From positions 9,871 through 73,870 of the forward strand of contig DATDXI010000012.1 of the NCBI GenBank assembly GCA_035289385.1: 64,000 nt of DNA, given 5' to 3'. Both the position numbers and the translations under genes were made by a program. How positions within the stretch are numbered: position 1 is the first letter of the stretch; each line of letters starts with the position of its first letter. This document shows, one piece after another, positions 1,859 through 28,903 of this stretch. The notes beneath the pieces are model-generated. The model was not told where the DNA came from, did not search any database, and was given only the letters and a program-made list of their open reading frames with translations. The DNA is from Candidatus Nanoarchaeia archaeon (lineage in GTDB: Archaea; Nanobdellota; Nanobdellia; Woesearchaeales; GW2011-AR9).

Positions 1859-1862
1859 TCCT

Positions 1863-12849: not shown

Positions 12850-12892
12850 ATCCTAGCCACATCCTAGCCACATCCTAGCCACATCCTACCCG
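12850..12892. repeat. 11-bp tandem repeat ATCCTAGCCAC, 3.9 copies
   Basis: Read directly. Units lie at 12850-12860, 12861-12871 and 12872-12882, with a degenerate fourth unit that overlaps the TAG stop of the GT-C gene. The tract sits about 80-120 nt upstream of the aminotransferase start. Confidence 0.9.
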
Positions 12893-14689: not shown

Positions 14690-14720
14690 GATCACTCCAA
14701 TGATCCCTTACACTCTCCTG

Positions 14721-14837
14721 TTCCATACTTTCTTATGTTCCATACTTTCTTATGTTCCATACTTCTTCAGATTCCATACTTTCTCGGATCCCATGCTCCT
14801 CAGATTCTATACTCTCTCGGATTTCCCATAACCTCTA
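14721..14837. repeat. Decaying 16-17-bp tandem repeat array, about 7 units (TTCCATACTTTCTTATG)
   Basis: Two perfect units lie at 14721-14737 and 14738-14754, followed by progressively diverged units with a 33-bp higher-order period. The array spans the intergenic promoter region of the GT-C gene and runs into the 3' end of the oxidoreductase gene. Confidence 0.85.
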
Positions 14838-16982: not shown

Positions 16983-17004
16983 CTCCAAAAAGGGATAATT
17001 TTGC

Positions 17005-17044: not shown

Positions 17045-17106
17045 ATCATAGAGATATCATAGAGAAAAGATAGAGAGAAAAAACAGGACTCCACAGAACA
17101 GGACTC
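17045..17106. repeat. Two pairs of short direct repeats (ATCATAGAGA x2, period 11; ACAGGACTC x2, period 15)
   Basis: Read directly. They lie upstream of the TATA box at 17005-17013, and the last copy overlaps the stop of the acetyltransferase gene. Confidence 0.8.
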
Positions 17107-17668
17107 AACATGTCTTGCTTAAACAAACACCACAATCATTTCCCGCACTATTCCCTTCGTCCAACTTTCTTCCACACGTACATACCCATCCCGCTAGCCG
17201 TGCAGGATTTCCATACACCAATGCAAAATCAGGAACATTCTTTGTAACTACAGACCCTGCTCCGACCATGGCAAATCTTCCAATAATGATGCCAGGAACA
17301 ACGACAGTCCTAGCGCCTAACGACGCACCTTCTTTTATCAGCGTTTTACTTTCTTCCCAATCTGAATCTGTTTTCAAGCTTCCATCGCTATTGATCGCTC
17401 TTGGCCAACGGTCATTGGTAAAGACACAATGCGGCCCGACAAACACACCATCTTCAAGAGTGACGCCATGATAGACAGAAGAATTATTTTGGATCTTACA
17501 ATTTTTTCCTATTACAACGCCTTTGTCAACATAAACATTCTTGCCGATGATGCAATTATCCCCGATGAAAGCTTCTTCCCGAACCTGAGCCTGATGCCAT
17601 ATTTTTACATTCGTTCCAATGGTCGCTGAAGAAGAGACATCTGCAGAAGGATGAAAAAACGTTGTCAT
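17105..17668 (-). CDS. Hexapeptide-repeat N-acetyltransferase (WbpD/WlbB-like)
   Basis: [79 protein letters not shown] overlap with the upstream epimerase stop. Confidence 0.75.
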
Positions 17669-18762
17669 AATGACCTCAACAAGCTAATGATATTATCAGC
17701 AACACCTTTCTCATAAGGATAGGGGATGTTTTTAATCTTTTGCAGTTCTTTATCATCCAGTAAGCGTCTGGCAGCCGACAAGATGGTCTCCGTCGTCGTT
17801 CCCGCAAGAATGTTCTTTCCCGCATCAACTAGGCTGATCCATTCTGTCTCCTGCCGAGGGATCAGGCAAGGGACATTAAAAAAAATCGCCTCTTCTTGAA
17901 TCCCACCGCTATCAGTAACACAAAAGCGGCATTCTTTCAGCAAAGCCAAAAATTGAAGGTATCCCTGAGGCTCAATAAGATGAATCGTTGGCGGCAAGGA
18001 GATACTGAATGTTTCTAGTGCCTTTTTGGTTCGAGGATGGATAGGAAAAAGTACAGGAAGATTCCTAGAAATAGTCTCTAGAGCAGCCAGTATCTCCTGC
18101 AGTTTGTTTTTATCATCTGTTGTTTCAGCCCGATGCAAGGTGACAAGAACATACTGCCCTGAAGAGATATTCTGTGTTTTAAGCATATTCTCGGAAGGGA
18201 TAAGTTTTTCATTCCTCTCCAAGGCATCAAAAACAATGCTGCCAAAAAGGTTGACGCCTTCCGTTATCCCTTCCTGAGATAGATTCTGCAAACTAGCCTT
18301 ATCAGGGGCAATAAGAAAAGAAGAGAGATGATCTACTATCACCCTATTAATCTCCTCAGGCATCTTCCTGTTAAACGAACGGCAGCCTGCTTCCACATGG
18401 AGCACCGAGATATGGAGCTTAGCCGCTGCCAGTGCTCCTGCTAAAGTGCTGTTAGTATCTCCCTGAACAATCACTAATTGAGGCTTTTCCTTCAGAAGCA
18501 CTTCTTCAATATTCTCCAGCATCATCGCTGTCTGCTTGCCAGCAGGATGAGAGCCGATAGTGAGGTTGTAAGACGGTGGTTCCAGCTGCAGCTCATCAAA
18601 GAAGACCTTATCCATCCGATAGTCATAATGCTGCCCCGTATGGATCAGGATATGCTGGAATTCTTTGTCTAGCAGAGGAAGCAATGGTGAGAGTTTGATG
18701 ATTTCTGGACGGGTTCCTAACACTGTAGCGATCTTCAATGGATTTTTTGCTGGATATCCCAT
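17665..18762 (-). CDS. UDP-N-acetylglucosamine 2-epimerase family (WecB/WbpI/NeuC-like)
   Basis: [37 protein letters not shown]. Confidence 0.85.
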
Positions 18763-19262: not shown

Positions 19263-20030
19263 TTACTTTTTTCCAGAAAAATCTCCTTTCAGACGATGCT
19301 TCGCTACTCTCAAGGCAAAGGCAGTATGGCTCTTGATAACTCTCAACAGTTTCATCTTCGACGTGCCAAAGACCCTGACGTTAAGGACAGTGGGATATTC
19401 TTTAACCTGATATCCTTTCATCATCGCAAAAATAAGAAATTCTGCCGTGCTCAAAAAATCATTAGATCTAAACGGAATATTTTTCACAACATCTTTGCGC
19501 TGAGCGCGGAAGAGGGCAGTAAACGTATATATTTTCGATCCCGTCAGCAGACGATCGATAGCGGTAACCGCTTTGCTTAATGCCAAGCGATATTTTGGAA
19601 CATTGTTCACCCCACCCAAAGGATGGTAAGGAGAAGCGGTGACGATGGCCGTTTCTTCATCCATCAGCTTCAGCAGATCAAAGATCCCTTTTGGCTCATA
19701 GGTGCAATCGCTATCCATGGTGACGATGATATCTCCTTGGGCAGCAGCAAATCCTGTACGTAACGCTGCCCCTAAGTTCATGTTCTTCTCATGACGGATG
19801 ATCTGAGCAGGATGCGGAGGAAGATGCTGAGCAGGATGCGGAGCAGAAAACTTTGTTACAAAAATCTCCTGAAGCAGCTGATAGGTATTATCCTTGCTGC
19901 CATCATCAACGAAGATCAACTCCCAATCATAATCTTTACTAAGTTGGTCCAGCACCGGAAACAAGTTGTCGGCAAGATGCCGGAGCCCTTCTTCCTCATT
20001 ATAGCAGGGGATGACGATAGATATCTTCAT
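19263..20030 (-). CDS. GT2 polyprenol/dolichol-phosphate glycosyltransferase (DPM1/ArnC-like)
   Basis: KISIVIPCYNEEEGL, IFVDDGSKDNT, TMDSDCTYEP. The ATG at 20030 lies 26 nt from the TATA box at 20053-20062. The gene contains an in-frame 24-bp tandem duplication (19803-19843, APHPAQHL/PPHPAQII). Confidence 0.8.
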   Translation of the reverse strand: MKISIVIPCYNEEEGLRHLADNLFPVLDQLSKDYDWELIFVDDGSKDNTYQLLQEIFVTKFSAPHPAQHLPPHPAQIIRHEKNMNLGAALRTGFAAAQGDIIVTMDSDCTYEPKGIFDLLKLMDEETAIVTASPYHPLGGVNNVPKYRLALSKAVTAIDRLLTGSKIYTFTALFRAQRKDVVKNIPFRSNDFLSTAEFLIFAMMKGYQVKEYPTVLNVRVFGTSKMKLLRVIKSHTAFALRVAKHRLKGDFSGKK

Positions 20031-20052
20031 CCTCAGCAATCACCGCTGCGGA

Positions 20053-20062
20053 TTTATAAATA
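20053..20062 (-). promoter_or_regulatory. TATA box for the leaderless GT2 transcript
   Basis: TTTATAAATA, with the centre 26.5 nt upstream of the ATG at 20030. Confidence 0.45.
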
Positions 20063-20096
20063 TTTGGGGATAGAGATACATTTACCTTCATAACAC

Positions 20097-20104
20097 TTAT
20101 AAAT
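20097..20104 (+). promoter_or_regulatory. TATA box for the leaderless hypothetical gene at 20126
   Basis: TTATAAAT, with the centre 26 nt upstream of the ATG at 20126. Confidence 0.45.
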
Positions 20105-20125
20105 CACTTTAGCCAACACAGAGGG

Positions 20126-20731
20126 ATGATAGAAGAACTCCTTTCTGGCGTAGAAGTTATTCAAAAAGTGAACTTAGGATTACAAGCTAACGGTCAACTG
20201 ATAAAAGCCTTTGATATTGCCCCTCCAGTTAAATTTTTGGTTGCTCCTGATCCATTACCTGGAAGAAGTGATCACTCTCTGAAGTATGCACAGACAGGTC
20301 TATTCCACTTTGGAAATACAACCTATTTTCTGGCAGTGGGCAATGCGCCAAACGCTGGTCAACATGAGCAGAGTGATTTTCTTTCTCTACAAATGGAATG
20401 GTATCATAGAACCCCTGATTCAATGACTGAACGAGAAGTTGTAGAGATATTCCGAGAGTATGCAGAGATATCAAAAAGAAATCTCACAGGGAGATCCTCA
20501 CTGATAGGTGCAACAAGCACGGGCCATCTTACTTTTTCTTCAGAAACTGCTAGACAGGCATTTCTTAGAGTATTTCCGAACGACACATTTATTTCTTTTT
20601 CAGCACCACAGCAAGAAAGAGGAGAAGACACTATCATGCGCTATCATCATTCTATTGTAGACCACATAGTACAAAAACTCCCTATCTTCTTAGAAGGAGT
20701 ACCCTCGAGATTCTACGCAAGAAAATCATAA
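20126..20731 (+). CDS. Hypothetical protein (201 aa, soluble, no family recognised)
   Basis: A clean ORF with a canonical TATA-to-ATG spacing. It is the only plus-strand gene inside the minus-strand block. Confidence 0.5.
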   Translation: MIEELLSGVEVIQKVNLGLQANGQLIKAFDIAPPVKFLVAPDPLPGRSDHSLKYAQTGLFHFGNTTYFLAVGNAPNAGQHEQSDFLSLQMEWYHRTPDSMTEREVVEIFREYAEISKRNLTGRSSLIGATSTGHLTFSSETARQAFLRVFPNDTFISFSAPQQERGEDTIMRYHHSIVDHIVQKLPIFLEGVPSRFYARKS

Positions 20732-20748
20732 AAAGAAGGCAAGCCTAC

Positions 20749-21075
20749 TCACAAATGCATAACCACAATTCCCAGCAAGATCAGGCTTATCCCGATGATC
20801 TTATACTTATTAATCTGTTCTTTCAGGACGGTCTTCGCTAAAATAATCGCCCAAATATAGCTTATGGAAGCTGTGAGATAGATGAACGTCAATGAGGCCT
20901 GCTGTAAGGCATAGATGTAGAAGACAAAAGAAACCCCAGCAAGGATAAACGCCCCCATCAGCTTATAGTTCTGAAGATTGATCTTCAACCCAGCACCAAG
21001 CTTAAACAGAAGTGTGCTGAATGCGCCAAAAATAGAGGAGATCAGGATGAACATCAAGGCCAAGGCAACATTCAT
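20749..21075 (-). CDS. 4-TM EamA/SMR-like half transporter (ArnE/ArnF-like lipid-linked sugar flippase subunit)
   Basis: The protein is 108 aa with four hydrophobic helices. It overlaps its paralog by 4 nt. Confidence 0.55.
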   Translation of the reverse strand: MNVALALMFILISSIFGAFSTLLFKLGAGLKINLQNYKLMGAFILAGVSFVFYIYALQQASLTFIYLTASISYIWAIILAKTVLKEQINKYKIIGISLILLGIVVMHL

Positions 21076-21425
21076 TGTTTACCACCCCGACCAATAAAGA
21101 TGACCCCACCGATGATGAGCAAGATACCTACCCATTTTTGAAGAAGAATTTCCTCTTGAAGAAAATATACGGAAAGAAGAGTAACGATGACATAGCTGGA
21201 AGCCATCACAGGATAGACGACAGACATCTCTCCTAAACGGAAAGCAAAGATAAACACGATAGAGCCGAGGGCATATAGCCCTAACCCCAGCAGGAGAGGG
21301 TAGTTATAAATTTGGTTCCAGTGCAAGGCAAAATTATCGCTGCCAAACTTCAGCAAGATCTGTGCCACCGAAACAATGATAGTACAGACCAAAGCTAGAA
21401 TGATGGCTTTTGTATTATTTTCCAT
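21072..21425 (-). CDS. 4-TM EamA/SMR-like half transporter (ArnE/ArnF-like flippase subunit)
   Basis: The protein is 117 aa with four helices and is paired with the gene at 20749-21075. Confidence 0.55.
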   Translation of the reverse strand: MENNTKAIILALVCTIIVSVAQILLKFGSDNFALHWNQIYNYPLLLGLGLYALGSIVFIFAFRLGEMSVVYPVMASSYVIVTLLSVYFLQEEILLQKWVGILLIIGGVIFIGRGGKQ

Positions 21426-21440
21426 GATTGATCATTGAGT

Positions 21441-22466
21441 TTATTTCTCAGCGTTCTTTTCAGAGATTGCTTGTTGATAAGAGTTAATAAATGTATGTAA
21501 TTTTCTCTTGGAAAAAGAGGGATTATTAGGGATAAAGATAATCTTCTCTGAAAGTCTCGATCCCAGCCACGGCGGTAAGAACAGAAAATTCTTAGCAAGG
21601 GCGCGATCCCGCTGGTCTTTACTTTCAAACCAGAGAGACAGATAATTATGGCTAGATAAAGCCCCCTTCGCCAGCCGTTGTGTCGGCACGTGATCTTTTA
21701 ATAAAAGATAATTCCTTCTCCTTTTCAAGATGGCTTTATGAATATGTTGCACCTGTCGTAAGGCCAGATATGCTTCCAACGGACTACAACGAAAATTTTT
21801 ATCAAGACTGTTCACCATCTTCAGATCAGTATTTCTTCTGGCGATGTCAATCAGGATCTTGGAAAAGAAAAAAGCTTTAGTTTCATATAATGAAGCCATC
21901 AGCCTTTTCATATAGCCCATAAATGGAGCTGGTTGATCAAGAGCATCCCGCAACTCACAGATCTTCAGCACGTCATGATTTGTTATCAGCGCCCCTCCAC
22001 CAACATTAACAAGCTGCTTGGTGAAACTATAGATAGTATAATCCCCAAAACTGCCAGCTAATTGACCCTCTTCCGATGCACCTAAAGCATGAGCAATATC
22101 TTCAATTAAGATAATGTTATTCTTCTTACAAAGGTTGGTGATTTCTCTGATTCCACTAGGATTCCCATACGTATGGACAAACACCAGAGCCTTTGTCTTC
22201 TTCGTTATATTTTTCTTGACTTCTGTAATATCAACATTAAATGTCCTATCGTCAACCTCCACTAGAATAGGTTTTCCTCCAGCTTTCTCGATAGCTTGTG
22301 GCAAACTATCACAGATAAACGATTGAATGATCACCTCATCATCCTTCTGCAGCGAAAGACTTAGCAGTAAAGTATACAACGCATTCCGGCAGGAGCTGAA
22401 TAGAACAGTATTCTTCAAGCCCAGGAATGATGATAATTCCCTCTCCAGTTGTTGTCGTATGTTCAT
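21441..22466 (-). CDS. DegT-family PLP aminotransferase (ArnB-like, short form)
   Basis: FSSCRNALYTLLLSL...DDEVIIQSFICDSLPQAIEKAGGKPILVEVDDRTFNVD and FSFTKQL (PLP Lys region). Confidence 0.7.
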   Translation of the reverse strand: MNIRQQLERELSSFLGLKNTVLFSSCRNALYTLLLSLSLQKDDEVIIQSFICDSLPQAIEKAGGKPILVEVDDRTFNVDITEVKKNITKKTKALVFVHTYGNPSGIREITNLCKKNNIILIEDIAHALGASEEGQLAGSFGDYTIYSFTKQLVNVGGGALITNHDVLKICELRDALDQPAPFMGYMKRLMASLYETKAFFFSKILIDIARRNTDLKMVNSLDKNFRCSPLEAYLALRQVQHIHKAILKRRRNYLLLKDHVPTQRLAKGALSSHNYLSLWFESKDQRDRALAKNFLFLPPWLGSRLSEKIIFIPNNPSFSKRKLHTFINSYQQAISEKNAEK

Positions 22467-22643
22467 AGTTCTTTCACTTTCAGATGTAATAACTTTTCAA
22501 CCTTATCTTTTTCATTATATAGTTATCGTCATGATTTATTTATTTATTGTCATTATTTATTTTGTCATTACTTATATCCATTATTCATTTATTCTCTTCA
22601 TTATTGAATCCCCACTATTATTGAGGAACAGTCAGATGAATAG

Positions 22644-23693
22644 TCAGACAAATTGCCGCATGACAAAGGGGCTTATCTTTTTAATCAGCCATATCGGCAA
22701 CATCCGCCAGACCATTCCGTAAAGGCGATACAAGCCGAATGATCTTTTGAGTTCAGGGATATTTTTCTTTTCCCTGGCATAAAAATAATAAGGGATCTCT
22801 CTCTTCTCCTTGCACCAGCGCTCCTTAAAAGCATAGAGATAACCATCATTTAGCTCTTTCGTCGTTCCTCCAAAATCAAGAGTACTGTAGCCATTCTTTA
22901 TTCCATATCGAATCACTTCCCATAACAGAAGGTAATACGGGCAGAGCGACGTGTATCTATAATCCGCTCCCGCAAAGCCATATTCTATCTCTAGACGATG
23001 GGTAAAGAAAAATGCAGCAGCTATCGGCTTCTGCTCAAGATAGGTGACGCCGACGAAAGCTGCGCATGTCTCCAGAGCATCGACAAATAATTGATACGGC
23101 CAAGCAGGAACACCGCGTTTCTTTTTAGTATACAGATATACTTTATAAAAATCAGCAACCATCTCTTTGCTTTTTCCTAGTTTGACAGAAAGACCGTTTT
23201 TTCTGGCCTTGTTGATATCATATCTCACCCGTTTATCCAAAGAGTGGAATGTTTCTTCTTCCGTCTTCTTAAAATGAAAAATGAAATCGGTGATGGGAGA
23301 TTGCTTTACAAAATCATCAGCGATTCCTGCAGGCAATTCCTCTCGCTGGCGGATCTCCAAGAATCTGCCTCCAGCTGACAGTTCTTGCGCTTTAGTTAGT
23401 AATTGCCGCTGGCACTCACTATTTTCGCCTATTACACCGCCAAAAGGAAAAAAAGGGATAGAAACAAAACGGCGTCCCTCGATGATACTATTAGCTTCAA
23501 AAAGAGGAAGAGCGCCAACGATCTTTTCTCCTTTTTTAGCTAAAATATAGAATGGCTTAAATTTGAAATGAGAGGCAATAAGGTCCTTCACTTCTAAGCT
23601 ATGCTCGTAAAGCGCAGCAGGATGCTCGGTGATGAATCTCTTGTACTCAGCAATATCCTGCTCTGTTAACAATGAAATGGTATAATTTGTCAT
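22644..23693 (-). CDS. FemABX-family (aminoacyl-tRNA-dependent peptidyltransferase-like, GNAT-fold) protein 1
   Basis: FKPFYILAKKGEKIVGALPLFE...RRFVSIPFFPFGGV; the C-terminal half has YGFAGADYRYTSLCPYYLLLWEVIRYGIKNGYSTLDFGGT, as in FemX/FemA. Confidence 0.6.
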   Translation of the reverse strand: MTNYTISLLTEQDIAEYKRFITEHPAALYEHSLEVKDLIASHFKFKPFYILAKKGEKIVGALPLFEANSIIEGRRFVSIPFFPFGGVIGENSECQRQLLTKAQELSAGGRFLEIRQREELPAGIADDFVKQSPITDFIFHFKKTEEETFHSLDKRVRYDINKARKNGLSVKLGKSKEMVADFYKVYLYTKKKRGVPAWPYQLFVDALETCAAFVGVTYLEQKPIAAAFFFTHRLEIEYGFAGADYRYTSLCPYYLLLWEVIRYGIKNGYSTLDFGGTTKELNDGYLYAFKERWCKEKREIPYYFYAREKKNIPELKRSFGLYRLYGMVWRMLPIWLIKKISPFVMRQFV

Positions 23694-23744
23694 GATCAGT
23701 TCTCTTCAACTATCTCCACCTATTTATCTCAGCAGCTAATGCCA

Positions 23745-24899
23745 TCAGACAAACTGCCTGATCACTATCGGACTTAATAATTTTATCAAACTGACTGGCA
23801 ATTTTGCCCAAACAGAACTAGCTATCTTTAGCAATAAGCTCTGGTCGTGCACAGGAATCTTCTGGCCTTTATTCAGGGAGTAATAATACGGCACTTCTTC
23901 AACGGTATCTGCCCACTTCTTCTTAAATTCGTAAAGACCACCATCATTAGTCTGAAGGGTAGCCCCGCCAAAATTGAAAAGGGTATAGCCTTTCTCACAC
24001 GCATCAGTGATTGCCTGCCAAAGAGCCAGATGATACGGCTGAAGCGCCATGATCTCTGGCTGATGCGCTGCTCCGGCAAAAGCGTACCGCACTTCTTTGT
24101 GGTGATATATCAGAAAGATGGATGCGACAGCTTTACCTTGAAAAAAGGAGGTATATATCCTTACATCATCACCAAAGGAATGAAGGATGTCCTTAAAATA
24201 ATCATAAGGATAGGCAGGAACTCCCCTTATTTTTCTCGTCTGAAGAAAAAGATGATAAAAGGTATCAAGATCGCTGGGGGTATTCCCGCTATGAACTACC
24301 ATTCCTGACTTTCTCGCCTTTGTAATGCCCCAGCGAACACTGCCTTTCGGCAATTTCTTCCAGACCTCTTGATGGTCTGCAGACAAATGCAAAGAAAAAT
24401 TGAAGACATGATTCACCGAAGGGATATCAGGAGAATAAACACTTGGTCCGTAACTATCTGGTTTTTCCCGGATCTCCATAAAATCAACCTGATGTTCCTG
24501 AGCAAGCCGCTTTGCAAACGTGAGAAGCTCCTTCGCCGTCTCTTCATCATTTGCAAGAATTCCGGTGAAAATAGCATAAGGGGTAGAGACAAATCTCTTC
24601 CCAAAGATGCTGACAGCTTTAAACAAGGGCAGGACACCGATAATCTTTCCATCGTCATCCTTGCCGAGAAGGTAATAGGGAGTAAAGTGAAAATTCTTCT
24701 GGATGATCTCTTTCCATTCTAAAGTATATTCAAACGTTACTCTCCCGTCCAAAATCATTTCTCCAAGAAATTGTTGGTATGCATCTTTATCTTTCTCCTC
24801 AAACAAACAAATGATACCTTTTTTTTGTTCATTTTGTTCATCTTCTCCTTTCTCCAAAGGATATTTTTGAGCGACAGTAGTTTGAGTTACCGTAGTCAT
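23745..24899 (-). CDS. FemABX-family protein 2 (tandem paralog)
   Basis: Collinear with 22644-23693: FTPYYLLGKDDDGKIIGVLPLFK...KRFVSTPYAIFTG ... YAFAGAAHQPEIMALQPYHLALWQAITDACEKGYTLFNFGGAT. Confidence 0.6.
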   Translation of the reverse strand: MTTVTQTTVAQKYPLEKGEDEQNEQKKGIICLFEEKDKDAYQQFLGEMILDGRVTFEYTLEWKEIIQKNFHFTPYYLLGKDDDGKIIGVLPLFKAVSIFGKRFVSTPYAIFTGILANDEETAKELLTFAKRLAQEHQVDFMEIREKPDSYGPSVYSPDIPSVNHVFNFSLHLSADHQEVWKKLPKGSVRWGITKARKSGMVVHSGNTPSDLDTFYHLFLQTRKIRGVPAYPYDYFKDILHSFGDDVRIYTSFFQGKAVASIFLIYHHKEVRYAFAGAAHQPEIMALQPYHLALWQAITDACEKGYTLFNFGGATLQTNDGGLYEFKKKWADTVEEVPYYYSLNKGQKIPVHDQSLLLKIASSVWAKLPVSLIKLLSPIVIRQFV

Positions 24900-24911
24900 G
24901 AATGCTTTGCC

Positions 24912-26030
24912 TCAATATTTTTTTTCTCCAATATTTCCTGGAGAACATTTTCCAAGTCTGTCATCATTCGATAAAGCGAATTTTCTTCTCACCAGCTCTT
25001 CCGTGGTAATAACAGTATGACGGCTGGCAATATCTTTAATCACACGCTCAAAGAGTGCTTCACGTTTCTTTAAGGATATGCCTACATGAGGTGCAACAGT
25101 ATTTCCTATAATTGTATTGCCCATAACAGTATTGCCCGTACTAGTATTATCCATACCATCAGTATTATCTACACTATTATTTCTCCTGCCTCTCTGTGGG
25201 AAAGGATCATCCGCTAGGTCAACAGCATGAAATTCATAATTGAGGGGGATTTTTGCCATGGAGACCATCTGCCGGCCAATCCAAAAGTATGGAAAACCTA
25301 GCTTATTGATAAACGTGGCATGAAATGGCAGACGAAAAAAAGGGAGCGTTGTGCAAGGCACTTCCAGAACTCCTCTCTCGGCATTCCCCTGAATATCTCT
25401 ATCTCTGCTTCCATGCGCCTTCCTCCACTCCACATCCCTGCTCGGCCAATAAGGGGCATTGGGAGCAAAACACCAGCTCCATTTTGGCCCATGGCTGCGT
25501 TTCACACCTCCAGACATAAACCTATTCAGCCCCATCAGCAAAGGATAAGCAAACGTCGGAATGACAGAGGAATCATACAAATAACCGCGTGACGATAAGA
25601 GCTGCAATGTTTCTATATCAATATCATAGCCTGGCACTTTAAATCCTAGTGGCTTCTTTCCGATGACTTCCTCGATGAGCTCTTCACTTCGCTGGATTTC
25701 TAGGATCTTCTCCGACAAAATAAGCTTTCTGAATCCAAAAATATGAGAATAAGTATGATTGGCAACTTCATGCCCGGCTCGATTTATTTTTTTAACTAAG
25801 GCCCGCTTCTGTGGGATTTCTAAGTCCTTTCCGATAACAAAAAACGTTGCCTTTACGCCATACTTTTCAAAAAGGTCAAGATAACGAGGGATAGAAGTAA
25901 TAAAGATATCATCGGGATATTCAGGAACAGTATTCCCATAATAAGAAGAATTGACCCAATGGCCGTCTAAATCTACTTGGATTGTACTTAATTTTTTTTG
26001 TGGTAGCTGTTGCAGCATCTGTTCTGCCAT
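24912..26030 (-). CDS. Polysaccharide deacetylase (NodB homology / CE4, ArnD-like)
   Basis: VKATFFVIGKDLE, AGHEVANHTYSH. It carries an internal low-complexity insert (NTDGMDNTSTGNTVMGNTIIGNTV) encoded by short DNA repeats at about 25090-25170. Confidence 0.75.
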   Translation of the reverse strand: MAEQMLQQLPQKKLSTIQVDLDGHWVNSSYYGNTVPEYPDDIFITSIPRYLDLFEKYGVKATFFVIGKDLEIPQKRALVKKINRAGHEVANHTYSHIFGFRKLILSEKILEIQRSEELIEEVIGKKPLGFKVPGYDIDIETLQLLSSRGYLYDSSVIPTFAYPLLMGLNRFMSGGVKRSHGPKWSWCFAPNAPYWPSRDVEWRKAHGSRDRDIQGNAERGVLEVPCTTLPFFRLPFHATFINKLGFPYFWIGRQMVSMAKIPLNYEFHAVDLADDPFPQRGRRNNSVDNTDGMDNTSTGNTVMGNTIIGNTVAPHVGISLKKREALFERVIKDIASRHTVITTEELVRRKFALSNDDRLGKCSPGNIGEKKY

Positions 26031-26128
26031 GCTTCATATCAGAAATGACCCCTAATTAAAGGTTATGATATAGTGTAATACTTCAGCTTTGCGAAGGAGA
26101 ACACGTCTCAAAATAGCATCCTAAAGCC

Positions 26129-27943
26129 TTATCCTGCAACTCTATCCTTCTTAAACAAGAAGATGACCGGCATCTTCTGCATACCCTTCTCCGTTGGGAC
26201 TTCCCTTTCCACAACATGAACTATCTGAAATCCTTGGCTTAAAAAGTAATCGATACTCTGCTGGCTGACGGGCCAATACCATTTTGGCTGAGTGTATTCC
26301 CAAACATCGATCTCCAGGAAGATGTCATGATCCTTCACTAACATAGCCAGATCTTCTTCAAAATTCTGCTTTGCATCATCAGGGTGAAATTCCTCCAGAT
26401 AACGATCGCCGCGCAGCCACCATAATGGTCCACCGACGATCGGGCTGTCTTCATGCCCTTCGTTATAATATTCCCTGCCGACAAAAGCACGGATAGACCT
26501 CGGAGAACCGGCAAAAATGATGGCATCATCCGGCGCATTTTCCTTAAGCCATTGTCCAGCTTCCTGATAGCCAAGAAAAGTAAAGGACTTGCCATATGCT
26601 AAGCTGTCAGCTACGACAAACGACTGTTGGGCGATGAAAAATACTGCTCCAAGCACGAGCAGGAATTTAAGCGGAGATGCAAATTTCTTGGTAGTAAACC
26701 CTGCAGCAAAAGAGGCTAGCTCTGTTAAGGTAAAAACTGCTAAGATGATGGCTAAAGGCAAGAGAGGAAGCATATATCTATCTTGAGTGTTATCGACGTT
26801 TACTTCAAAGAACAGCCAGTAGCATACCCCTAACACTAATGGTCCATAAAAAATTCTTTGCCGATAGATGATGACCAGAGCGATCCCCATGAGTACAAAT
26901 GGGATCAGATACCAAGAAAAGATCCATTTGAGCATCCCTGCCGCTTCAAGACCAAAAGGCATTCCCCGCAGCTGAAGAAAGAGGCCAAAGACACGCCCAA
27001 GAAGTTTTGTATGCAGGAAAACAGCAGCGACTATCGAAGCGACAATAGCTGCTCCCCAGGGAATGACCCATGAAGCAATATATGGCTTTGAAAGAAACAT
27101 CTCTTTCCTTTTGAAGAGTAAATAATAGACAAGAATAGCTAAGATAAAGAGAACTGACTGGACCTTATGGAGCAAGGTGATCAGGAAAGATAAGCCTAAT
27201 ATGATCCCCCACTTCATATTCTGCTCCTTTTCCAGCTTCACTAATGAATACATCAGAAAAATGACGCTGACGAGCAATGGAGCATCCCCCAGCGGGCGGA
27301 TCGTGTAAAAATAATAGATATGGTTTACAGAAAGCAAGATAGCCGCCATCAATCCCGTAAACTTATCACGAAGCTCCTTGCCCAGCAGATAGATGAGGAT
27401 AACTCCTAACACGCAGTAAGTAAGGATCATCAGCTCTGAAGCGGTAGATATGTTGCCAGTGATGATAGAATAAAATGCAGTTATTGTTTGAGGGATAGCA
27501 TAATCTTCTAAATAATACGTCGGCCAGAGCAGGGTGGAAAGAGGATGCATGATTAATTTCTGCGCATACCACAGATGGACTGCTGCATCGTTCCAGATGC
27601 TTTCCATGGGCAGATACTTCAGCCTGATCAAGACGGTCCCTATAACAACAAAGAACAGCAGGATAGCATACAAACCTATCTTTCGTTCCTTGCCTTGGAA
27701 ATAAACTCTTGCTTTTTGAAAGAGATCGAAAGCATTTTTTTTCTGCTCGGAAAAAGGTTCATGATGAGGGGATACTTGTTCATGATGTTGGACTAGCGGT
27801 TCCTGATGGGAAGACGCATGATGATGAGACCTATGGCTAGGATGCCCCTCCTCTGTATTGATATGTTCATTGACCATCGTTTTATGAGACCGTTTTATGA
27901 GATAGTTTAACAAAAAATACGCTAGGCGGAGATAAAATCTCAA
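26129..27943 (-). CDS. GT-C fold glycosyltransferase (ArnT/PMT-like), second copy
   Basis: The protein is 604 aa with a His-rich N-terminal tail, more than 10 TM helices and a soluble C-terminal domain. An alternative start is at 27877 (MVNEH), which is preceded by the 12-bp tandem duplication CGTTTTATGAGA x2 at 27879-27902. Confidence 0.6.
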   Translation of the reverse strand: MRFYLRLAYFLLNYLIKRSHKTMVNEHINTEEGHPSHRSHHHASSHQEPLVQHHEQVSPHHEPFSEQKKNAFDLFQKARVYFQGKERKIGLYAILLFFVVIGTVLIRLKYLPMESIWNDAAVHLWYAQKLIMHPLSTLLWPTYYLEDYAIPQTITAFYSIITGNISTASELMILTYCVLGVILIYLLGKELRDKFTGLMAAILLSVNHIYYFYTIRPLGDAPLLVSVIFLMYSLVKLEKEQNMKWGIILGLSFLITLLHKVQSVLFILAILVYYLLFKRKEMFLSKPYIASWVIPWGAAIVASIVAAVFLHTKLLGRVFGLFLQLRGMPFGLEAAGMLKWIFSWYLIPFVLMGIALVIIYRQRIFYGPLVLGVCYWLFFEVNVDNTQDRYMLPLLPLAIILAVFTLTELASFAAGFTTKKFASPLKFLLVLGAVFFIAQQSFVVADSLAYGKSFTFLGYQEAGQWLKENAPDDAIIFAGSPRSIRAFVGREYYNEGHEDSPIVGGPLWWLRGDRYLEEFHPDDAKQNFEEDLAMLVKDHDIFLEIDVWEYTQPKWYWPVSQQSIDYFLSQGFQIVHVVEREVPTEKGMQKMPVIFLFKKDRVAG

Positions 27944-27946
27944 ACC

Positions 27947-28903
27947 TTAATGGATAACCCCCACCGGATCTGGTATCAACCGCATATCTTCCGGGCGGAT
28001 CACTTTAGAGAACTGATAATCCCCTACACCTAACGGGTTAAATCTACCAGTATACATAATTTCCAAAATTAACCGAGGCTTCTTCCTCGATCTCGAGCCA
28101 TAATGGAAACATCGTGAAGCATTGATCAGCACAGCATTTCCCGCTGTTCCAACCACCTTCAGCGCTTTTTCCGGAGATATCTGCTGATACATTTTCTCAT
28201 CAGTCACCCGCTCATTATAATATCCTATACGGTCAGCGATGACCTCTGATATGTCTCCTGGGAGGAAAGTAAAAGGCCCAGCATCCTCATCAACGTCATG
28301 GATAGCGACGAATATCTGAAAGCGCTTATGAAACCTCTTATCCAGATGATACATCTGCGGCCCGATCGTCTGGTCATTAACGGCAGTATGCATCAGAAAG
28401 ATATCCCCTATTACGGGCTTCTCTCCCATATAGTTGGCAACCATGCTGACAATCTCTGGCTTTGTGGCAAATGTTACAACAGGTAGTATCTCTTGAAGAG
28501 AATAATACTTCCCTTTTACACCGCCTTTGCCGATAAGGAAAGGCTTCGCCTTGAATTCTTGGGGGTTTTTCCGGTAATACTCCTCGACGTCAGCGCTCTT
28601 TTCCTTGAACAGCTTCTGGCAATGGGCAACAACCTCTTGTAATCCTGGAAGCGATTTTGCCGTGATAAACTTATAATGCACATCTTTAGGAAGAGTTAAA
28701 GGAGGCTGAACACGTTTCAGGAAAGGCTGTATCTCCTTTTCCCGATTCAGGTAACGAAAGGGATGGCGCGCTATCTTTAAGCTGCGAAGAATTGCCCAGC
28801 GATACTTGCAATGGACACCCAATTTAGTCAACCCATGGTTGATGATCCTGTCTGTCCCGGTGCTTCGGAATTTTTCAAAGGTATACACGCTCTTAACTCC
28901 CAT
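27947..28903 (-). CDS. Putative Fe(II)/2-oxoglutarate dioxygenase (PhyH-like)
   Basis: An H-x-D string (MYHLDKRF) and a distal His (RCFHYGS) sit in a PhyH-like arrangement. This is a weak call from motifs only. Confidence 0.35.
   Translation of the reverse strand: MGVKSVYTFEKFRSTGTDRIINHGLTKLGVHCKYRWAILRSLKIARHPFRYLNREKEIQPFLKRVQPPLTLPKDVHYKFITAKSLPGLQEVVAHCQKLFKEKSADVEEYYRKNPQEFKAKPFLIGKGGVKGKYYSLQEILPVVTFATKPEIVSMVANYMGEKPVIGDIFLMHTAVNDQTIGPQMYHLDKRFHKRFQIFVAIHDVDEDAGPFTFLPGDISEVIADRIGYYNERVTDEKMYQQISPEKALKVVGTAGNAVLINASRCFHYGSRSRKKPRLILEIMYTGRFNPLGVGDYQFSKVIRPEDMRLIPDPVGVIH

What the first reader, a model, noticed from the sequence alone, without database searches (positions are those of the whole stretch)
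19263..28903. Arn-like lipid-linked amino-sugar module with two tandem FemABX-type transferases: candidate tRNA-dependent peptide decoration of an archaeal surface glycan
Seen in the sequence: a minus-strand run of nine genes.
- PhyH-like dioxygenase (27947-28903), 4 nt from the next gene.
- GT-C glycosyltransferase (26129-27943).
- CE4 deacetylase (24912-26030).
- Two paralogous FemABX-like proteins (23745-24899 and 22644-23693), separated by gaps of 12 and 51 nt.
- DegT aminotransferase (21441-22466).
- Two 4-TM half transporters overlapping by 4 nt (21072-21425 and 20749-21075).
- A DPM1/ArnC-like GT2 (19263-20030).

Established knowledge: the bacterial Arn pathway works through ArnB aminotransferase, ArnC GT2, ArnD CE4 deformylase, the ArnE/F flippase and the ArnT GT-C enzyme. 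Fem enzymes use aminoacyl-tRNA to acylate a free amine on lipid II.

Inference: a free amine on a dolichol-linked sugar, produced by the aminotransferase and/or the CE4 enzyme, is aminoacylated once or twice. The product is then flipped by the ArnE/F-like pair and transferred outside the cell by the GT-C enzyme. I know of no characterised archaeal pathway of this kind, but I cannot verify novelty without a literature or database search.
Basis: partly seen in the sequence, partly recalled or inferred. Interest (0 to 1): 0.72.

Follow-up and report, generated by a model that had tools for sequence, protein, structure and literature searches.

The report
Archaeal sugar-editing module with Fem enzymes
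A tiny (DPANN) archaeon carries a conserved gene set that looks built to load an amino sugar on a membrane lipid, remove its acetyl group, attach amino acids with two enzymes related to the tRNA-using Fem enzymes of bacterial cell walls, and move the product outside the cell; this chemistry has not been described for archaeal surface sugars and is still untested.

Summary
All nine minus-strand ORFs exist at the stated coordinates and carry the stated families.

The core order is GT-C, CE4, Fem1, Fem2, short DegT, EamA half-transporter pair, polyprenyl-phosphate-type GT2. It recurs in at least a dozen DPANN contigs at 42-70% protein identity, so it is not chance.

- Fem1 and Fem2 match only FemX/FemA in the PDB by sequence.
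- A confident AF2 model of Fem1 is closest to aminoacyl-tRNA-dependent transferases: FemX, the amino-sugar-acylating Sba18/Sbb17, FemA and MprF. Acyl-CoA tandem GNATs rank lower.
- The catalytic Phe-Lys of FemX is kept in 55 of 57 copies, and the Lys in all 57.
- The CoA-binding motif is absent.

Corrections:
- The PhyH-like gene and the plus-strand orf201 are not conserved parts.
- The module continues downstream to about 14800: WecB-type 2-epimerase, hexapeptide acetyltransferase, DegT, archaeal-type UDP-GlcNAc 3-dehydrogenase, often a second GT-C.
- The parts work like Arn but are not Arn orthologues.
- The 2-epimerase + CE4 + FemAB triad is already annotated, though uncharacterised, in bacterial PEP-CTERM exopolysaccharide loci.

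tRNA dependence, the acceptor and the amino acids remain inferred. Verdict: a new variant of known kinds, interest 0.6.

The parts
26129..27943 (-). GT-C fold membrane glycosyltransferase (PMT_2). It is the presumed outward-facing transferase that uses the flipped lipid-phosphate sugar. The likely real start gives 582 aa.
   Evidence: Pfam PMT_2 52.5 bits. About 11-13 hydrophobic segments. AF2 pLDDT 83.6; Foldseek hits STT3/PglB/AglB, ALG12 and ArnT 5f15. Orthologues lie upstream of CE4 in most loci.
24912..26030 (-). Cytoplasmic CE4 (NodB-type) deacetylase, the presumed generator of a free sugar amine.
   Evidence: Polysacc_deac_1 72 bits; best NCBIfam hit is TIGR03006 pepcterm_polyde, 69.7 bits, below its cut-off. 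Best PDB matches are HpPgdA 3qbu and 3rxz, with the D-x-D and H-x4-H residues aligned. No TM segment or signal peptide. Next to a Fem1-type gene in every locus where both genes lie on the contig; same strand and upstream except in L046/L047, where it is downstream on the opposite strand.
23745..24899 (-). Fem1: a FemX-like double-GNAT transferase and candidate aminoacyl-tRNA-dependent N-aminoacyltransferase. Residues 1-28 are a disordered extension.
   Evidence: FemAB 67.2 bits, Acetyltransf_6 55.3 bits, TIGR03019 186.7 bits against a cut-off of 260. The only PDB sequence hits are FemX. AF2 pLDDT 91, and Foldseek's top hits are FemX, Sba18/Sbb17 and FemA. F325-K326 equal FemX F304-K305 and are invariant.
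22644..23693 (-). Fem2: a paralogue of Fem1 (37% identity) that forms its own orthologue group and is a candidate second aminoacyltransferase.
   Evidence: Fem2-type copies are 46-67% identical across loci (92% in the near relative L022), against 30-37% to Fem1. The F/Y-K motif is kept in 24 of 24 Fem2-type copies.
21441..22466 (-). Short DegT-family PLP enzyme (341 aa) that lacks the usual N-terminal 30-60 residues; presumed sugar aminotransferase.
   Evidence: DegT_DnrJ_EryC1 148 bits over profile positions 27-253 of 360. PDB matches are sugar aminotransferases, and the PLP lysine is aligned (SF..TK). Conserved after Fem2 in the full modules; absent in the L034-L037 and single-Fem variants.
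21072..21425 (-). 4-TM EamA/SMR-like half transporter 1 (ArnE/F-like), part of the presumed flippase heterodimer.
   Evidence: EamA 33.9 bits; best NCBIfam hits are ArnE 36.6 and ArnF 33.7 bits, below their cut-offs. Four hydrophobic segments. Overlaps the next gene by 4 nt.
20749..21075 (-). 4-TM EamA/SMR-like half transporter 2 (ArnE/F-like).
   Evidence: EamA 38.7 bits; best NCBIfam hit ArnE 30.4 bits. Four hydrophobic segments. Forms its own orthologue group, 56-71% identical across loci.
19263..20030 (-). Soluble GT2 of the polyprenyl-phosphate glycosyltransferase class (DPM1/ArnC/GtrB-like), the presumed loader of the sugar onto dolichyl phosphate.
   Evidence: Glycos_transf_2 109 bits. 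Best PDB matches are P. furiosus Dol-P-Man synthase 5mlz (E 1.5e-21), ArnC (E 1e-14) and GtrB. No TM segment.
17665..18762 (-). Non-hydrolysing UDP-GlcNAc 2-epimerase (WecB type).
   Evidence: TIGR00236 wecB 345 bits, above its cut-off of 210. Follows the GT2 in nearly all loci, including the single-Fem and YfhO variants.
17105..17668 (-). Hexapeptide-repeat sugar N-acetyltransferase (WbpD/NeuD-like).
   Evidence: Hexapep 102 bits. NeuD/PglB/VioB subfamily 98.6 bits. Conserved at 55-72% identity.
15780..16988 (-). Full-length DegT sugar aminotransferase (WbpE-like partner of the 3-dehydrogenase).
   Evidence: DegT 412 bits. Conserved next to the GFO gene.
14800..15792 (-). GFO/IDH/MocA oxidoreductase; its best match is the archaeal UDP-GlcNAc 3-dehydrogenase.
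   Evidence: NF040723 342 bits against a cut-off of 450, nearly full length. 65-76% identical in most loci (41-43% in the single-Fem variants L013 and L041; 91% in L022).
12886..14676 (-). Second GT-C (PMT/PMT_2), a frequent but not universal companion.
   Evidence: Pfam PMT 31 bits and PMT_2 28 bits. Homologues occur in L010, L022, L027, L034-L037, L042 and L043.
27947..28903 (-). PhyH-like protein (weak match). It is adjacent but is not a conserved part of the module.
   Evidence: PhyH 24.6 bits against a cut-off of 22. A homologue is found only in the 90%-identical relative L022.
20126..20731 (+). orf201 on the opposite strand, between the half-transporter pair and the GT2. It has no family and is not conserved; the site is an insertion hot spot.
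   Evidence: No Pfam or NCBIfam hit. No homologue in other loci. Other loci carry unrelated ORFs here, including a transposase-like one in L016.

Best explanation
This is a three-component, Arn-like pathway for decorating the cell surface with a lipid-linked amino sugar. A 'deacetylate, then aminoacylate' editing step has been inserted on the cytoplasmic side. The proposed sequence is below; all steps are inferred unless marked otherwise.

1. The downstream genes make a UDP-2-acetamido or 2,3-diacetamido hexose of the manno configuration from UDP-GlcNAc. These genes are a UDP-GlcNAc 3-dehydrogenase-like GFO enzyme, a DegT aminotransferase, a hexapeptide acetyltransferase and a WecB 2-epimerase.
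2. The soluble DPM1/ArnC-class GT2 transfers that sugar to dolichyl phosphate.
3. The cytoplasmic CE4 enzyme removes an N-acetyl group, as ArnD does on Und-P-Ara4FN. The short DegT may provide a second amine.
4. Fem1 and Fem2 each transfer an amino acid from aminoacyl-tRNA to a free amine. The result is either a dipeptide or two separately acylated amines.
5. The heterodimer of two 4-TM EamA proteins flips the lipid-linked product.
6. The GT-C enzyme transfers it to an acceptor outside the cell. Candidates are an N-glycan, an S-layer protein or a lipid; an AglB gene lies in the same window.

What is shown computationally: the gene content, the family and fold assignments, the cytoplasmic versus membrane location, the retained catalytic residues, and the conserved synteny. 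What is not shown: the substrates, the donor, the order of steps and the acceptor.
For: Synteny:
- The order GT-C, CE4, Fem1, Fem2, DegT(short), EamA1, EamA2, GT2, 2-epimerase, acetyltransferase, DegT, GFO is kept at 42-70% identity in a dozen or more DPANN contigs.
- In relatives at 35-38% identity the same theme persists with a different GT-C family: Epimerase_2, GT2, B12-rSAM, Fem, CE4, YfhO, Hexapep, DegT, GFO.

Fem identity:
- Pfam FemAB above its cut-off.
- The only PDB sequence hits are FemX and FemA.
- AF2 pLDDT 91, and the first 19 Foldseek hits are all aminoacyl-tRNA-dependent enzymes. They include Sba18/Sbb17 bound to an amino sugar.
- FemX F304-K305 are conserved in 55 of 57 copies, and the Lys in all 57.
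- No CoA-binding motif. A conserved basic cluster is present: K181, K185, R189, K194, R222, K223, K326-328.

Other parts:
- The GT2's best solved relatives are Dol-P-Man synthase, ArnC and GtrB.
- The best NCBIfam hits of the half transporters are ArnE/ArnF.
- GT-C fold.
- CE4, Fem1, Fem2, DegT and GT2 have no TM segment or signal peptide, so they sit where aminoacyl-tRNA is available.

Precedents:
- A Gly-tRNA-dependent Fem-like enzyme, Orf11, acylates an amino sugar (PMC12945691).
- CE4 and FemAB-related genes are adjacent, with a 2-epimerase, in bacterial PEP-CTERM EPS clusters (PMC3684757; TIGR03006 and TIGR03019 as best NCBIfam hits).
Against: - No biochemical datum exists for this Fem subfamily or for its bacterial TIGR03019 relatives, so tRNA dependence rests on homology alone.
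- FemX Arg211, which binds the UDP-diphosphate of its acceptor, is a Tyr here (alignment). The acceptor therefore differs and cannot be read from the sequence.
- All Arn-type assignments are below the NCBIfam cut-offs, and no ArnA-like enzyme is present.
- The GT2 lacks the TM domain of ArnC and archaeal DPMS.
- Some variants (L034-L037) have GT-C, CE4, Fem1 and Fem2 but no GT2, EamA pair or short DegT within 10 kb. The lipid-monophosphate route is therefore not obligatory.
- No dedicated tRNA gene lies in the window.
- No Rosetta-stone CE4-Fem fusion was found.
Confidence: 0.5

Rival explanations
1. The pathway architecture is the same, but the two Fem-like proteins are N-acyltransferases that use a donor other than aminoacyl-tRNA, such as an acyl-CoA, an acyl carrier protein or another activated acid. 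They would re-acylate the amine freed by CE4, swapping the N-acetyl group for a different acyl group.
For: - Pfam Acetyltransf_6 also hits both proteins (55-56 bits).
- One homologue is named CelD/BcsL acetyltransferase by a source (P0049).
- Tandem-GNAT acyl-CoA enzymes (VipF, 2wpw) appear among the Foldseek hits (E 1e-10 to 1e-9).
- No member of the TIGR03019-like clade has been assayed; the literature searches found nothing.
Against: - The Q/RxxGxG/A CoA pyrophosphate-binding motif is absent from both proteins.
- The closest sequence and structure matches all depend on aminoacyl-tRNA, with better E-values and TM-scores than the CoA enzymes.
- The FemX Phe-Lys pair, which contacts the tRNA 3' end and the transition state, is invariant.
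Confidence: 0.2
2. The chemistry is tRNA-dependent aminoacylation, but of a different acceptor or in a different order. The Fem enzymes would act on the UDP-sugar before lipid loading, as FemX of W. viridescens acts on UDP-MurNAc-pentapeptide. Alternatively they would act on a Dol-PP-linked oligosaccharide that is later used by AglB or a polymerase, rather than on a Dol-P-monosaccharide.
For: - Loci L034-L037 lack the GT2, the EamA pair and the short DegT nearby.
- The bacterial locus L018 carries three Fem-like genes in a Wzx-type cluster with GFO and Hexapep and no CE4 or GT-C.
- PEP-CTERM EPS loci are Wzx/Wzy-type.
- The window holds Wzx-like flippases (29037-30605, 50228-51565) and AglB (54926-57709).
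Against: - The GT2, the half-transporter pair and a GT-C co-occur tightly with CE4-Fem in most loci. They co-occur even when the GT-C family is swapped for YfhO, which is known for Pren-P-sugar donors.
- From my own knowledge, CE4 enzymes acting on a lipid-linked sugar have a precedent in ArnD, whereas UDP-sugar deacetylases usually belong to other families.
Confidence: 0.2
3. The Fem genes are remnants or parts of a peptidoglycan- or pseudomurein-like wall pathway acquired from bacteria, as the automatic names 'peptidoglycan bridge formation glycyltransferase FemA/FemB' suggest.
For: Source names given to homologues. Pfam FemAB hit.
Against: - The FemX equivalog model scores 58.7 and 36.2 bits against a cut-off of 500.
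- The acceptor-binding Arg211 is not conserved.
- No Mur ligase, MraY or MurG family appeared in any ORF of 150 aa or more that was scanned across the 64-kb window.
- The conserved partners are sugar-nucleotide and lipid-linked glycan enzymes.
Confidence: 0.02

Closest known systems
Arn pathway of Gram-negative bacteria (ArnB/ArnC/ArnD/ArnE-ArnF/ArnT). The related Lgm (Bordetella) and Flm/NaxD (Francisella) lipid A hexosamine systems are recalled from my own knowledge.
   Same: The logic and the enzyme classes are the same:
- a DegT aminotransferase;
- a polyprenyl-phosphate GT2 (ArnC is among the best PDB hits);
- a cytoplasmic CE4 that unmasks the amine on the lipid-linked sugar;
- a pair of 4-TM half transporters encoded by overlapping genes (ArnE/ArnF are the best NCBIfam hits);
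- a GT-C transferase (ArnT 5f15 is among the Foldseek hits).
   Different: - None of the proteins reaches the NCBIfam cut-off for the Arn orthologues.
- There is no ArnA.
- The GT2 has no TM domain.
- The sugar is probably a (di)acetamido hexose rather than Ara4N.
- Two Fem-like enzymes sit between the deacetylase and the flippase genes.
- The host is an archaeon without lipid A.
Three-component extracytoplasmic glycosylation systems: GtrA/GtrB/GtrV, CsbB/GtcA/YfhO, and Haloferax AglD/AglR/AglS (the last from my own knowledge).
   Same: A GT2 loads a sugar on polyprenyl or dolichyl phosphate, a small membrane protein flips it, and a GT-C transfers it outside. GtrB is a PDB hit of the GT2. YfhO replaces the PMT_2 GT-C in the distant variants L046 and L047.
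   Different: Those systems transfer unmodified hexoses or HexNAc. Here a CE4 and one or two Fem-like enzymes are conserved parts of the unit.
FemX (W. viridescens), FemX/FemA/FemB (S. aureus) and MurM/MurN: aminoacyl-tRNA-dependent peptidoglycan branch transferases.
   Same: - Double-GNAT fold, with the best structural and the only PDB sequence matches.
- The catalytic Lys305 and Phe304 equivalents are conserved.
- The size matches FemX_Wv, without the coiled-coil arm of FemA.
- Tandem paralogues suggest successive or parallel additions.
   Different: - Only 16-17% identity.
- The FemX equivalog model is far below its cut-off.
- Arg211, which binds UDP-MurNAc-pentapeptide, is replaced.
- There is no peptidoglycan machinery in the window.
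- The genetic partners are glycan enzymes.
Orf11 (BD-12 pathway) and Sba18/Sbb17: aminoacyl-tRNA-dependent enzymes that acylate the amino sugar intermediate streptothrisamine in Streptomyces.
   Same: A Fem-type fold, and an acceptor that is a free amine on an amino sugar. These are the second-best group of structural matches (9wqy, 9wqx, 9wqw; TM-score normalised to the target 0.77-0.82). The function is described in PMC12945691.
   Different: They act on a soluble secondary-metabolite acceptor in an antibiotic gene cluster. Identity is 14-16%, and there is no lipid carrier, flippase or GT-C.
TIGR03019 (FemAB family, XrtA/PEP-CTERM-associated) with TIGR03006 (XrtA-system polysaccharide deacetylase) in bacterial exopolysaccharide loci.
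   Same: - These are the best NCBIfam hits for Fem1/Fem2 and for the CE4.
- 2-epimerase, CE4 and FemAB-related genes are adjacent in Rubrivivax, Thauera and Rhodoferax (PMC3684757).
- The A1 profile also retrieves true TIGR03019 members.
   Different: - Scores are below the cut-offs: 187 and 162 against 260, and 70 against 276.
- No exosortase or PEP-CTERM gene turned up in the scanned ORFs of the window.
- The bacterial loci are Wzx/Wzy-type, without the GT2, half-transporter pair and GT-C trio.
- The function of the bacterial pair is itself uncharacterised.
MprF and aminoacyl-phosphatidylglycerol synthases.
   Same: They transfer an amino acid from aminoacyl-tRNA to a membrane-lipid-bound acceptor on the cytoplasmic face and then flip it. 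They are structural matches at E about 1e-10.
   Different: The ester goes to a glycerol hydroxyl of PG, the synthase is fused to its own flippase, and the relationship is more distant.

Membership tests
FemABX aminoacyl-tRNA transferases (Pfam PF02388) | Pfam FemAB model above its gathering score | tested here: met
   67.2 and 66.8 bits against a cut-off of 24, in two stretches each.
FemABX aminoacyl-tRNA transferases (Pfam PF02388) | Two tandem GNAT domains with a FemX-like overall fold | tested here: met
   AF2 pLDDT 91, pTM 0.87. Foldseek's top hits are FemX_Wv, E 5e-18, TM-score normalised to the target 0.73.
FemABX aminoacyl-tRNA transferases (Pfam PF02388) | Catalytic Lys305 and the tRNA-A76-stacking Phe304 of FemX_Wv | tested here: met
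   They align to F325-K326 in Fem1 and to FK in LYAFKERW in Fem2. Both are invariant in the 23-sequence alignment. Across the loci the pair is F/Y-K in 57 of 57 copies.
FemABX aminoacyl-tRNA transferases (Pfam PF02388) | Use of aminoacyl-tRNA as the donor | not testable with these tools
   Only indirect support: no CoA-binding motif, a conserved basic patch, and a cytoplasmic location.
Peptidoglycan FemX (NCBIfam NF047883 equivalog) | Score above the equivalog cut-off, and acceptor-binding residues for UDP-MurNAc-pentapeptide | tested here: not met
   58.7 and 36.2 bits against a cut-off of 500. FemX Arg211 aligns with Tyr230.
TIGR03019 FemAB family, XrtA/PEP-CTERM-associated | Score above the curated cut-off (260.35 bits) | tested here: not met
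   186.7 bits (Fem1) and 161.7 bits (Fem2), full-length alignments. True members retrieved by the same profile score 293-339 bits.
TIGR03019 FemAB family, XrtA/PEP-CTERM-associated | Adjacent CE4 deacetylase | tested here: met
   CE4 lies 12 nt upstream of Fem1. CE4 is next to a Fem1-type gene in every locus where both genes lie on the contig. The CE4 itself scores only 69.7 bits against a TIGR03006 cut-off of 276.
TIGR03019 FemAB family, XrtA/PEP-CTERM-associated | Association with an exosortase/PEP-CTERM system | tested here: not met
   No exosortase family appeared among the 50 window ORFs scanned. Six ORFs of 150 aa or more were not scanned: two look like real genes (49171-49653, 49650-50210), and four overlap longer genes on the opposite strand and are probably not real. 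Five scanned ORFs had no family at all.
Arn pathway (ArnB, ArnC, ArnD, ArnE/F, ArnT, ArnA) | Orthologues of each Arn protein (NCBIfam equivalog cut-offs) | tested here: not met
   Scores against cut-offs: ArnC 71.6 against 529; ArnD 17 against 382; ArnE 36.6 against 92; ArnF 33.7 against 99; ArnB 95 against 631. ArnT is not found by PDB sequence search. No formyltransferase/decarboxylase gene is present.
Arn pathway (ArnB, ArnC, ArnD, ArnE/F, ArnT, ArnA) | The same set of enzyme classes in one gene cluster: aminotransferase, Pren-P GT2, CE4, two half transporters, GT-C | tested here: met
   the set is conserved together.
Polyprenyl-phosphate glycosyltransferases (GT2; DPM1/ArnC/GtrB class) | Catalytic domain closest to known Pren-P GT2 enzymes | tested here: met
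   5mlz at E 1.5e-21 over residues 1-230; ArnC at E 1e-14; GtrB at E 6e-10.
Polyprenyl-phosphate glycosyltransferases (GT2; DPM1/ArnC/GtrB class) | C-terminal membrane anchor, as in ArnC, GtrB and PfDPMS | tested here: not met
   No hydrophobic segment in the 255-258 aa protein. Soluble DPM1-type enzymes exist (own knowledge), so this does not exclude the function.
GT-C glycosyltransferases | Multi-TM GT-C fold with conserved acidic residues in the first external loop | tested here: met
   AF2 pLDDT 83.6. Foldseek hits STT3, PglB, AglB, ALG12 and ArnT at E 2e-9 to 1e-6. W95-N96-D97 and D125 are invariant in the 28-sequence alignment.

The most novel reading that the evidence does not exclude
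DPANN archaea, and by extension the roughly 1,900 or more 50%-identity clusters of the TIGR03019-like clade in bacterial exopolysaccharide loci, use aminoacyl-tRNA outside translation. They would use it to build amino-acid or dipeptide side chains on a lipid-linked amino sugar that is then exported and attached to the cell surface. This would be the first tRNA-dependent glycan aminoacylation pathway outside peptidoglycan, and the first Fem-type activity in Archaea.
Probability: 0.45. Interest if true: 0.8.

Novelty: new variant of a known kind. Interest (0 to 1): 0.6.

Why it matters
Non-ribosomal uses of aminoacyl-tRNA are few: peptidoglycan bridges, lipid aminoacylation by MprF, N-end-rule transferases and some natural products. 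No case is known in Archaea or for surface glycans.

If Fem1 and Fem2 work as predicted, four things follow:
- A large uncharacterised clade gets a function. The profile search found 1,907 clusters at E <= 1e-30, and the clade includes the PEP-CTERM-associated FemAB proteins of bacterial biofilm loci.
- It would explain how amino-acid-bearing amino sugars can be made without ATP-grasp ligases.
- DPANN archaea have reduced genomes and depend on host contact, so investing 8-13 genes in one surface decoration would point to a role in cell-cell interaction.
- The question becomes directly testable, because all the cytoplasmic enzymes are soluble and the predicted catalytic lysine is known.

Tried and rejected
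- **Rosetta-stone fusion.** I looked for CE4-Fem fusion proteins among longer family members (P0138, P0172, P0201, P0209, P0228). Their N-terminal parts have no CE4 or any other clear Pfam domain. This gave no support, and nothing against.

- **One amine source per Fem.** I proposed that each Fem is paired with its own amine-generating enzyme, CE4 with Fem1 and the short DegT with Fem2. L011 and the single-Fem loci fit. L034-L037 have Fem2 without the short DegT nearby. I kept this only as an option.

- **PhyH-like gene as a module member.** Rejected, because the gene is absent from all loci except the 90%-identical relative L022.

- **orf201 as a module member.** Rejected: it has no homologues, and the site carries unrelated insertions in other loci.

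- **Specific ArnT or ArnD orthology.** There is no PDB sequence hit for the GT-C, and the fold search ranks STT3 and ALG12 as high as ArnT. The ArnD model scores 17 bits.

- **Dedicated tRNA or structured RNA near the cluster.** None was found by ARAGORN or by Rfam at gathering thresholds. There were no meaningful repeats.

- **Literature.** No paper in the searchable library links FemAB or FemX with DPANN, Woesearchaeota, archaeal glycosylation, O-antigen clusters or exosortase. The exceptions are a gene table (PMC3684757) and a passing mention in sponge Thaumarchaeota (PMC7848895). The primary Orf11 paper (PMC4959175) is not held.

Full report
**1. The observation**

The nine minus-strand ORFs are present at the coordinates given. 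Their spacing follows from the coordinates:
- CE4 to Fem1: 12 nt.
- Fem1 to Fem2: 51 nt.
- The two small membrane-protein genes overlap by 4 nt.

Three details need correcting:
- The GT2 ORF can be extended to a TTG at 20039. The ATG at 20030 is the start used by public gene calls (255 aa).
- The 604-aa GT-C ORF begins at a TTG. Public calls give 582 aa, so the '4 nt' spacing to the PhyH-like gene is uncertain.
- A 201-aa ORF on the plus strand (20126-20731) sits between the half-transporter pair and the GT2.

The PhyH hit is marginal, at 24.6 bits against a cut-off of 22.

**2. The organism and the window**

The exact Fem1 protein is on record as a 'Candidatus Nanoarchaeia archaeon' MAG protein. 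That class belongs to the Nanobdellota, the DPANN archaea.

The 64-kb window is almost entirely a glycan island:
- an AglB/STT3 oligosaccharyltransferase at 54926-57709;
- Wzx-like flippases;
- a nonulosonic-acid and bacillosamine-type gene set at about 250-12770;
- two B12-binding radical SAM enzymes;
- methyltransferases and nucleotidyltransferases.

No tRNA gene or Rfam family was found.

**3. Is the arrangement conserved?**

I scanned one genome per species of GTDB and the JGI metagenomes with an alignment of Fem1 relatives. I then mapped all window proteins onto the retrieved loci by tblastn.

*Full module.* The order is GT-C, CE4, Fem1, Fem2, short DegT, EamA1, EamA2, GT2, WecB-type 2-epimerase, hexapeptide acetyltransferase, then usually DegT, GFO and a second GT-C.
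- It recurs in L007-L010, L012, L014-L017, L022, L023/L039, L027, L042 and L043.
- Identity is 42-70% (90% in L022).
- The contigs are labelled Woesearchaeota, Nanoarchaeota, 'archaeon' or 'uncultured Methanosarcinales'.
- At that divergence, retained adjacency implies selection.

*Two Fem groups.* Fem1-type and Fem2-type copies form separate orthologue groups. Within a group, identity to the window copy is about 42-67% (33% for the most divergent copy, L017; 90-92% in L022). Across groups it is 30-37%. Fem1 lies next to CE4 wherever both genes are on the contig. The duplication is therefore old and both copies are maintained.

*Variants.*
- L013, L040 and L041 have CE4-Fem1 with the GT2 and the 2-epimerase, but no Fem2 or EamA pair.
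- L034-L037 have GT-C, CE4, Fem1, Fem2 and a second GT-C, with no GT2, EamA pair or short DegT within 10 kb.
- L011 has 8 kb inserted between Fem1 and Fem2.

*Not conserved.* The PhyH-like gene has a homologue only in the near-identical L022. orf201 has none. The site between EamA2 and the GT2 holds unrelated ORFs in other loci, including a transposase-like one.

*More distant relatives.* Two relatives at 35-38% identity (P0049, P0050) lie in loci with this order: Epimerase_2, GT2, B12-radical SAM, Fem, CE4 (opposite strand), YfhO (with Alg14/Alg13), Hexapep, DegT, GFO. The GT-C has been replaced by a different GT-C family while the theme is kept. I regard this as the strongest single argument that GT2, CE4, Fem and GT-C form one functional unit.

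**4. What the two Fem-like proteins are**

- Sequence. The only PDB entries they match by sequence are FemX of Weissella viridescens (E 4e-11 and 2e-6), S. aureus FemA (E 8e-4) and, not significantly, S. aureus FemX 6snr (E 0.07).
- Active site. In those alignments, FemX Phe304-Lys305 align with F325-K326 of Fem1 and with the FK of LYAFKERW in Fem2. [quoted passage not shown]
- Conservation. Both positions are invariant in a 23-sequence alignment. Across 57 non-identical copies from the fetched loci the motif is FK in 55 and YK in 2.
- Structure. An AF2 model of Fem1 is confident (pLDDT 91, pTM 0.87; residues 1-28 disordered).
- Fold search. The first 19 Foldseek PDB matches are all aminoacyl-tRNA-dependent enzymes: FemX_Wv (E 5e-18), Sba18/Sbb17 'aminoacyl-tRNA-dependent peptide synthase' bound to the amino sugar streptothrisamine (E 6e-15, TM-score normalised to the target up to 0.82), FemA, S. 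aureus FemX, and MprF/aaPG synthases. Acyl-CoA tandem GNATs (VipF, the clavulanate tandem GNAT) follow, with weaker scores.
- CoA motif. Neither protein has the Q/RxxGxG/A CoA-binding motif.
- Basic patch. A set of basic residues is conserved: K181, K185, R189, K194, R222, K223, K326-328.
- Acceptor. FemX Arg211, which I recall as a contact of the UDP-diphosphate of its acceptor, aligns with a conserved Tyr. The acceptor is therefore different.

That criterion is not met.

**5. Family placement of the Fem proteins**

By NCBIfam, the best model for both proteins is TIGR03019, the FemAB family associated with XrtA/PEP-CTERM exopolysaccharide loci. The scores are 187 and 162 bits over the full length, against a cut-off of 260. 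The peptidoglycan FemX model reaches only 59 and 36 bits against a cut-off of 500.

A profile search of 1.84 billion representatives found:
- 17,843 clusters at E <= 1e-3;
- 8,482 at E <= 1e-10;
- 1,907 at E <= 1e-30.

About 14 DPANN-type clusters score 327 bits or more. Below them is a broad plateau that includes true TIGR03019 members.

[quoted passage not shown] The 2-epimerase + CE4 + Fem triad is therefore an already annotated, though uncharacterised, bacterial sub-module. The DPANN version is a diverged relative of it.

A Cytophagia locus (L018) carries three Fem-like genes in a Wzx-type cluster, next to GFO and hexapeptide acetyltransferase genes.

**6. The other parts**

- GT2. Its best solved relatives are all polyprenyl-phosphate glycosyltransferases: P. 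furiosus Dol-P-Man synthase (E 1.5e-21), ArnC and GtrB. It has no membrane anchor.
- CE4. It has no signal peptide or TM segment. It is closest to the HpPgdA/3rxz type, with the D-x-D and H-x4-H residues aligned.
- Short DegT. It keeps the PLP lysine but lacks the usual N-terminal segment and has a diverged C-terminal half.
- Small proteins. Each has four hydrophobic segments, with ArnE/ArnF as best NCBIfam hits below the cut-offs.
- Large membrane protein. It has a GT-C fold (AF2 pLDDT 83.6) and matches STT3, PglB, AglB, ALG12 and ArnT about equally. It cannot be called an ArnT orthologue.
- Downstream genes. The 2-epimerase passes the wecB cut-off (345 bits). The GFO enzyme's best model is the archaeal UDP-GlcNAc 3-dehydrogenase (342 bits against a cut-off of 450). 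Between them lie a DegT and a hexapeptide acetyltransferase. From my own knowledge of the WbpB/WbpE/WbpD/WbpI and methanococcal pathways, this set makes UDP-2,3-diacetamido-2,3-dideoxy sugars. No UDP-sugar 6-dehydrogenase was seen in the window.

**7. Most likely mechanism (inferred)**

1. A UDP-(di)acetamido hexose is made by the downstream genes.
2. The GT2 loads it on dolichyl phosphate.
3. The CE4 N-deacetylates it on the cytoplasmic face.
4. Fem1 and Fem2 aminoacylate it from aminoacyl-tRNA.
5. The EamA heterodimer flips it.
6. The GT-C transfers it to an external acceptor.

The soluble, signal-less nature of CE4, Fem1, Fem2, DegT and GT2 fits a cytoplasmic editing stage where charged tRNA is available.

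I cannot decide whether the two Fem enzymes build a dipeptide or acylate two different amines. I also cannot say which amino acids are used or what the acceptor is. I put the overall scheme at about 0.5.

Main rivals:
- a non-tRNA acyl donor (0.2);
- the same chemistry on a UDP-sugar or a Dol-PP-oligosaccharide (0.2), which loci L034-L037 and L018 make plausible;
- a peptidoglycan-like role (0.02).

**8. Comparison with what is known, and novelty**

The system works like the Arn/Lgm/Flm-type lipid-linked amino-sugar modification systems. It also works like the three-component Gtr, CsbB-YfhO and AglD-AglR-AglS systems. It is not a member of the Arn family: the equivalog cut-offs are all missed and there is no ArnA.

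The Fem proteins are members of the Pfam FemAB superfamily. They are not peptidoglycan FemX and not TIGR03019 by the curated thresholds.

Aminoacyl-tRNA-dependent acylation of an amino sugar has a precedent in Orf11 and Sba18/Sbb17 (PMC12945691).

Ten full-text searches found no description of this module or of Fem-type enzymes in archaeal glycosylation. The only mention was in passing, of FemAB domains in sponge Thaumarchaeota.

I therefore rate it a new variant of known kinds. The combination and the host are new, the individual parts are not, and the function is untested.

Noticed in passing
window 253-12770: A gene set typical of nonulosonic-acid or bacillosamine-type sugar synthesis. It comprises a HisH/HisF-like amidotransferase pair (253-993, 950-1858), a cytidylyltransferase (4235-4978), a PglD-like acetyltransferase (8562-9290), a BKACE beta-keto acid cleavage enzyme (9478-10326), and PglE/PglF-like DegT and Polysacc_synt_2 genes (10597-12770, whose ORFs overlap by 280 nt). 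It also includes NeuB (5011-6615), which carries an unusual N-terminal 2'-5' RNA ligase-superfamily domain.
   Followed up: partly
window 54926-57709: A 927-aa STT3/AglB-type oligosaccharyltransferase lies in the same island. N-glycans are therefore a plausible acceptor for the decorated sugar.
   Followed up: no
window 43147-44706 and 52052-53677; L013 7649-9070; L046 7541-8992; L047 4004-5449: B12-binding radical SAM enzymes recur. Two lie in the window. In the single-Fem variants, one lies directly next to the CE4 or Fem genes. It may methylate the sugar or the attached amino acid.
   Followed up: partly
window 20126-20731 (+); L009 about 13978-15027; L016 13954-14688: The gap between the second half-transporter gene and the GT2 is an insertion hot spot. 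The window has an orphan 201-aa ORF there, L016 a transposase-like ORF, and other loci unrelated ORFs or an inverted GT2.
   Followed up: partly
L018 (Cytophagia bacterium MAG) 742-13062: A bacterial Wzx-type polysaccharide cluster with three Fem-like paralogues. They are interleaved with GFO, hexapeptide acetyltransferase, asparagine synthase, an AMP-binding enzyme, an NAD-synthase-like protein and a methyltransferase. There is no CE4.
   Followed up: partly
L046 10979-13933: A 984-aa protein in which YfhO (GT-C) is fused to Alg14, followed by an Alg13-like gene. In L047 the same parts are separate genes.
   Followed up: no
L008, L009, L012, L013, L017 (record titles): Several contigs whose module is syntenic with, and 33-55% identical to (by Fem1), Woesearchaeota and Nanoarchaeota loci are titled 'uncultured Methanosarcinales archaeon'. 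Either the label is unreliable or the module is wider spread than DPANN.
   Followed up: no
window 35573-42466 and 45197-47888: A second sugar-pathway block on the minus strand. It holds a cupin/mannose-6-P isomerase-like protein, an SDR, a GatZ/KbaZ-like aldolase, two nucleotidyltransferase-like proteins, a DUF218 protein, two inositol-monophosphatase-family proteins and a HAD hydrolase. The product is unknown.
   Followed up: no
window 62383-63498: A class I Trp/Tyr-type aminoacyl-tRNA synthetase gene lies about 34 kb from the Fem genes. It is probably housekeeping, and no link to the module is shown.
   Followed up: no
window 1806-3119, 33383-34483, 59263-61221, 61324-62256, 7699-8598: Five ORFs of 299-652 aa inside the glycan island have no Pfam family at the thresholds used.
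   Followed up: no
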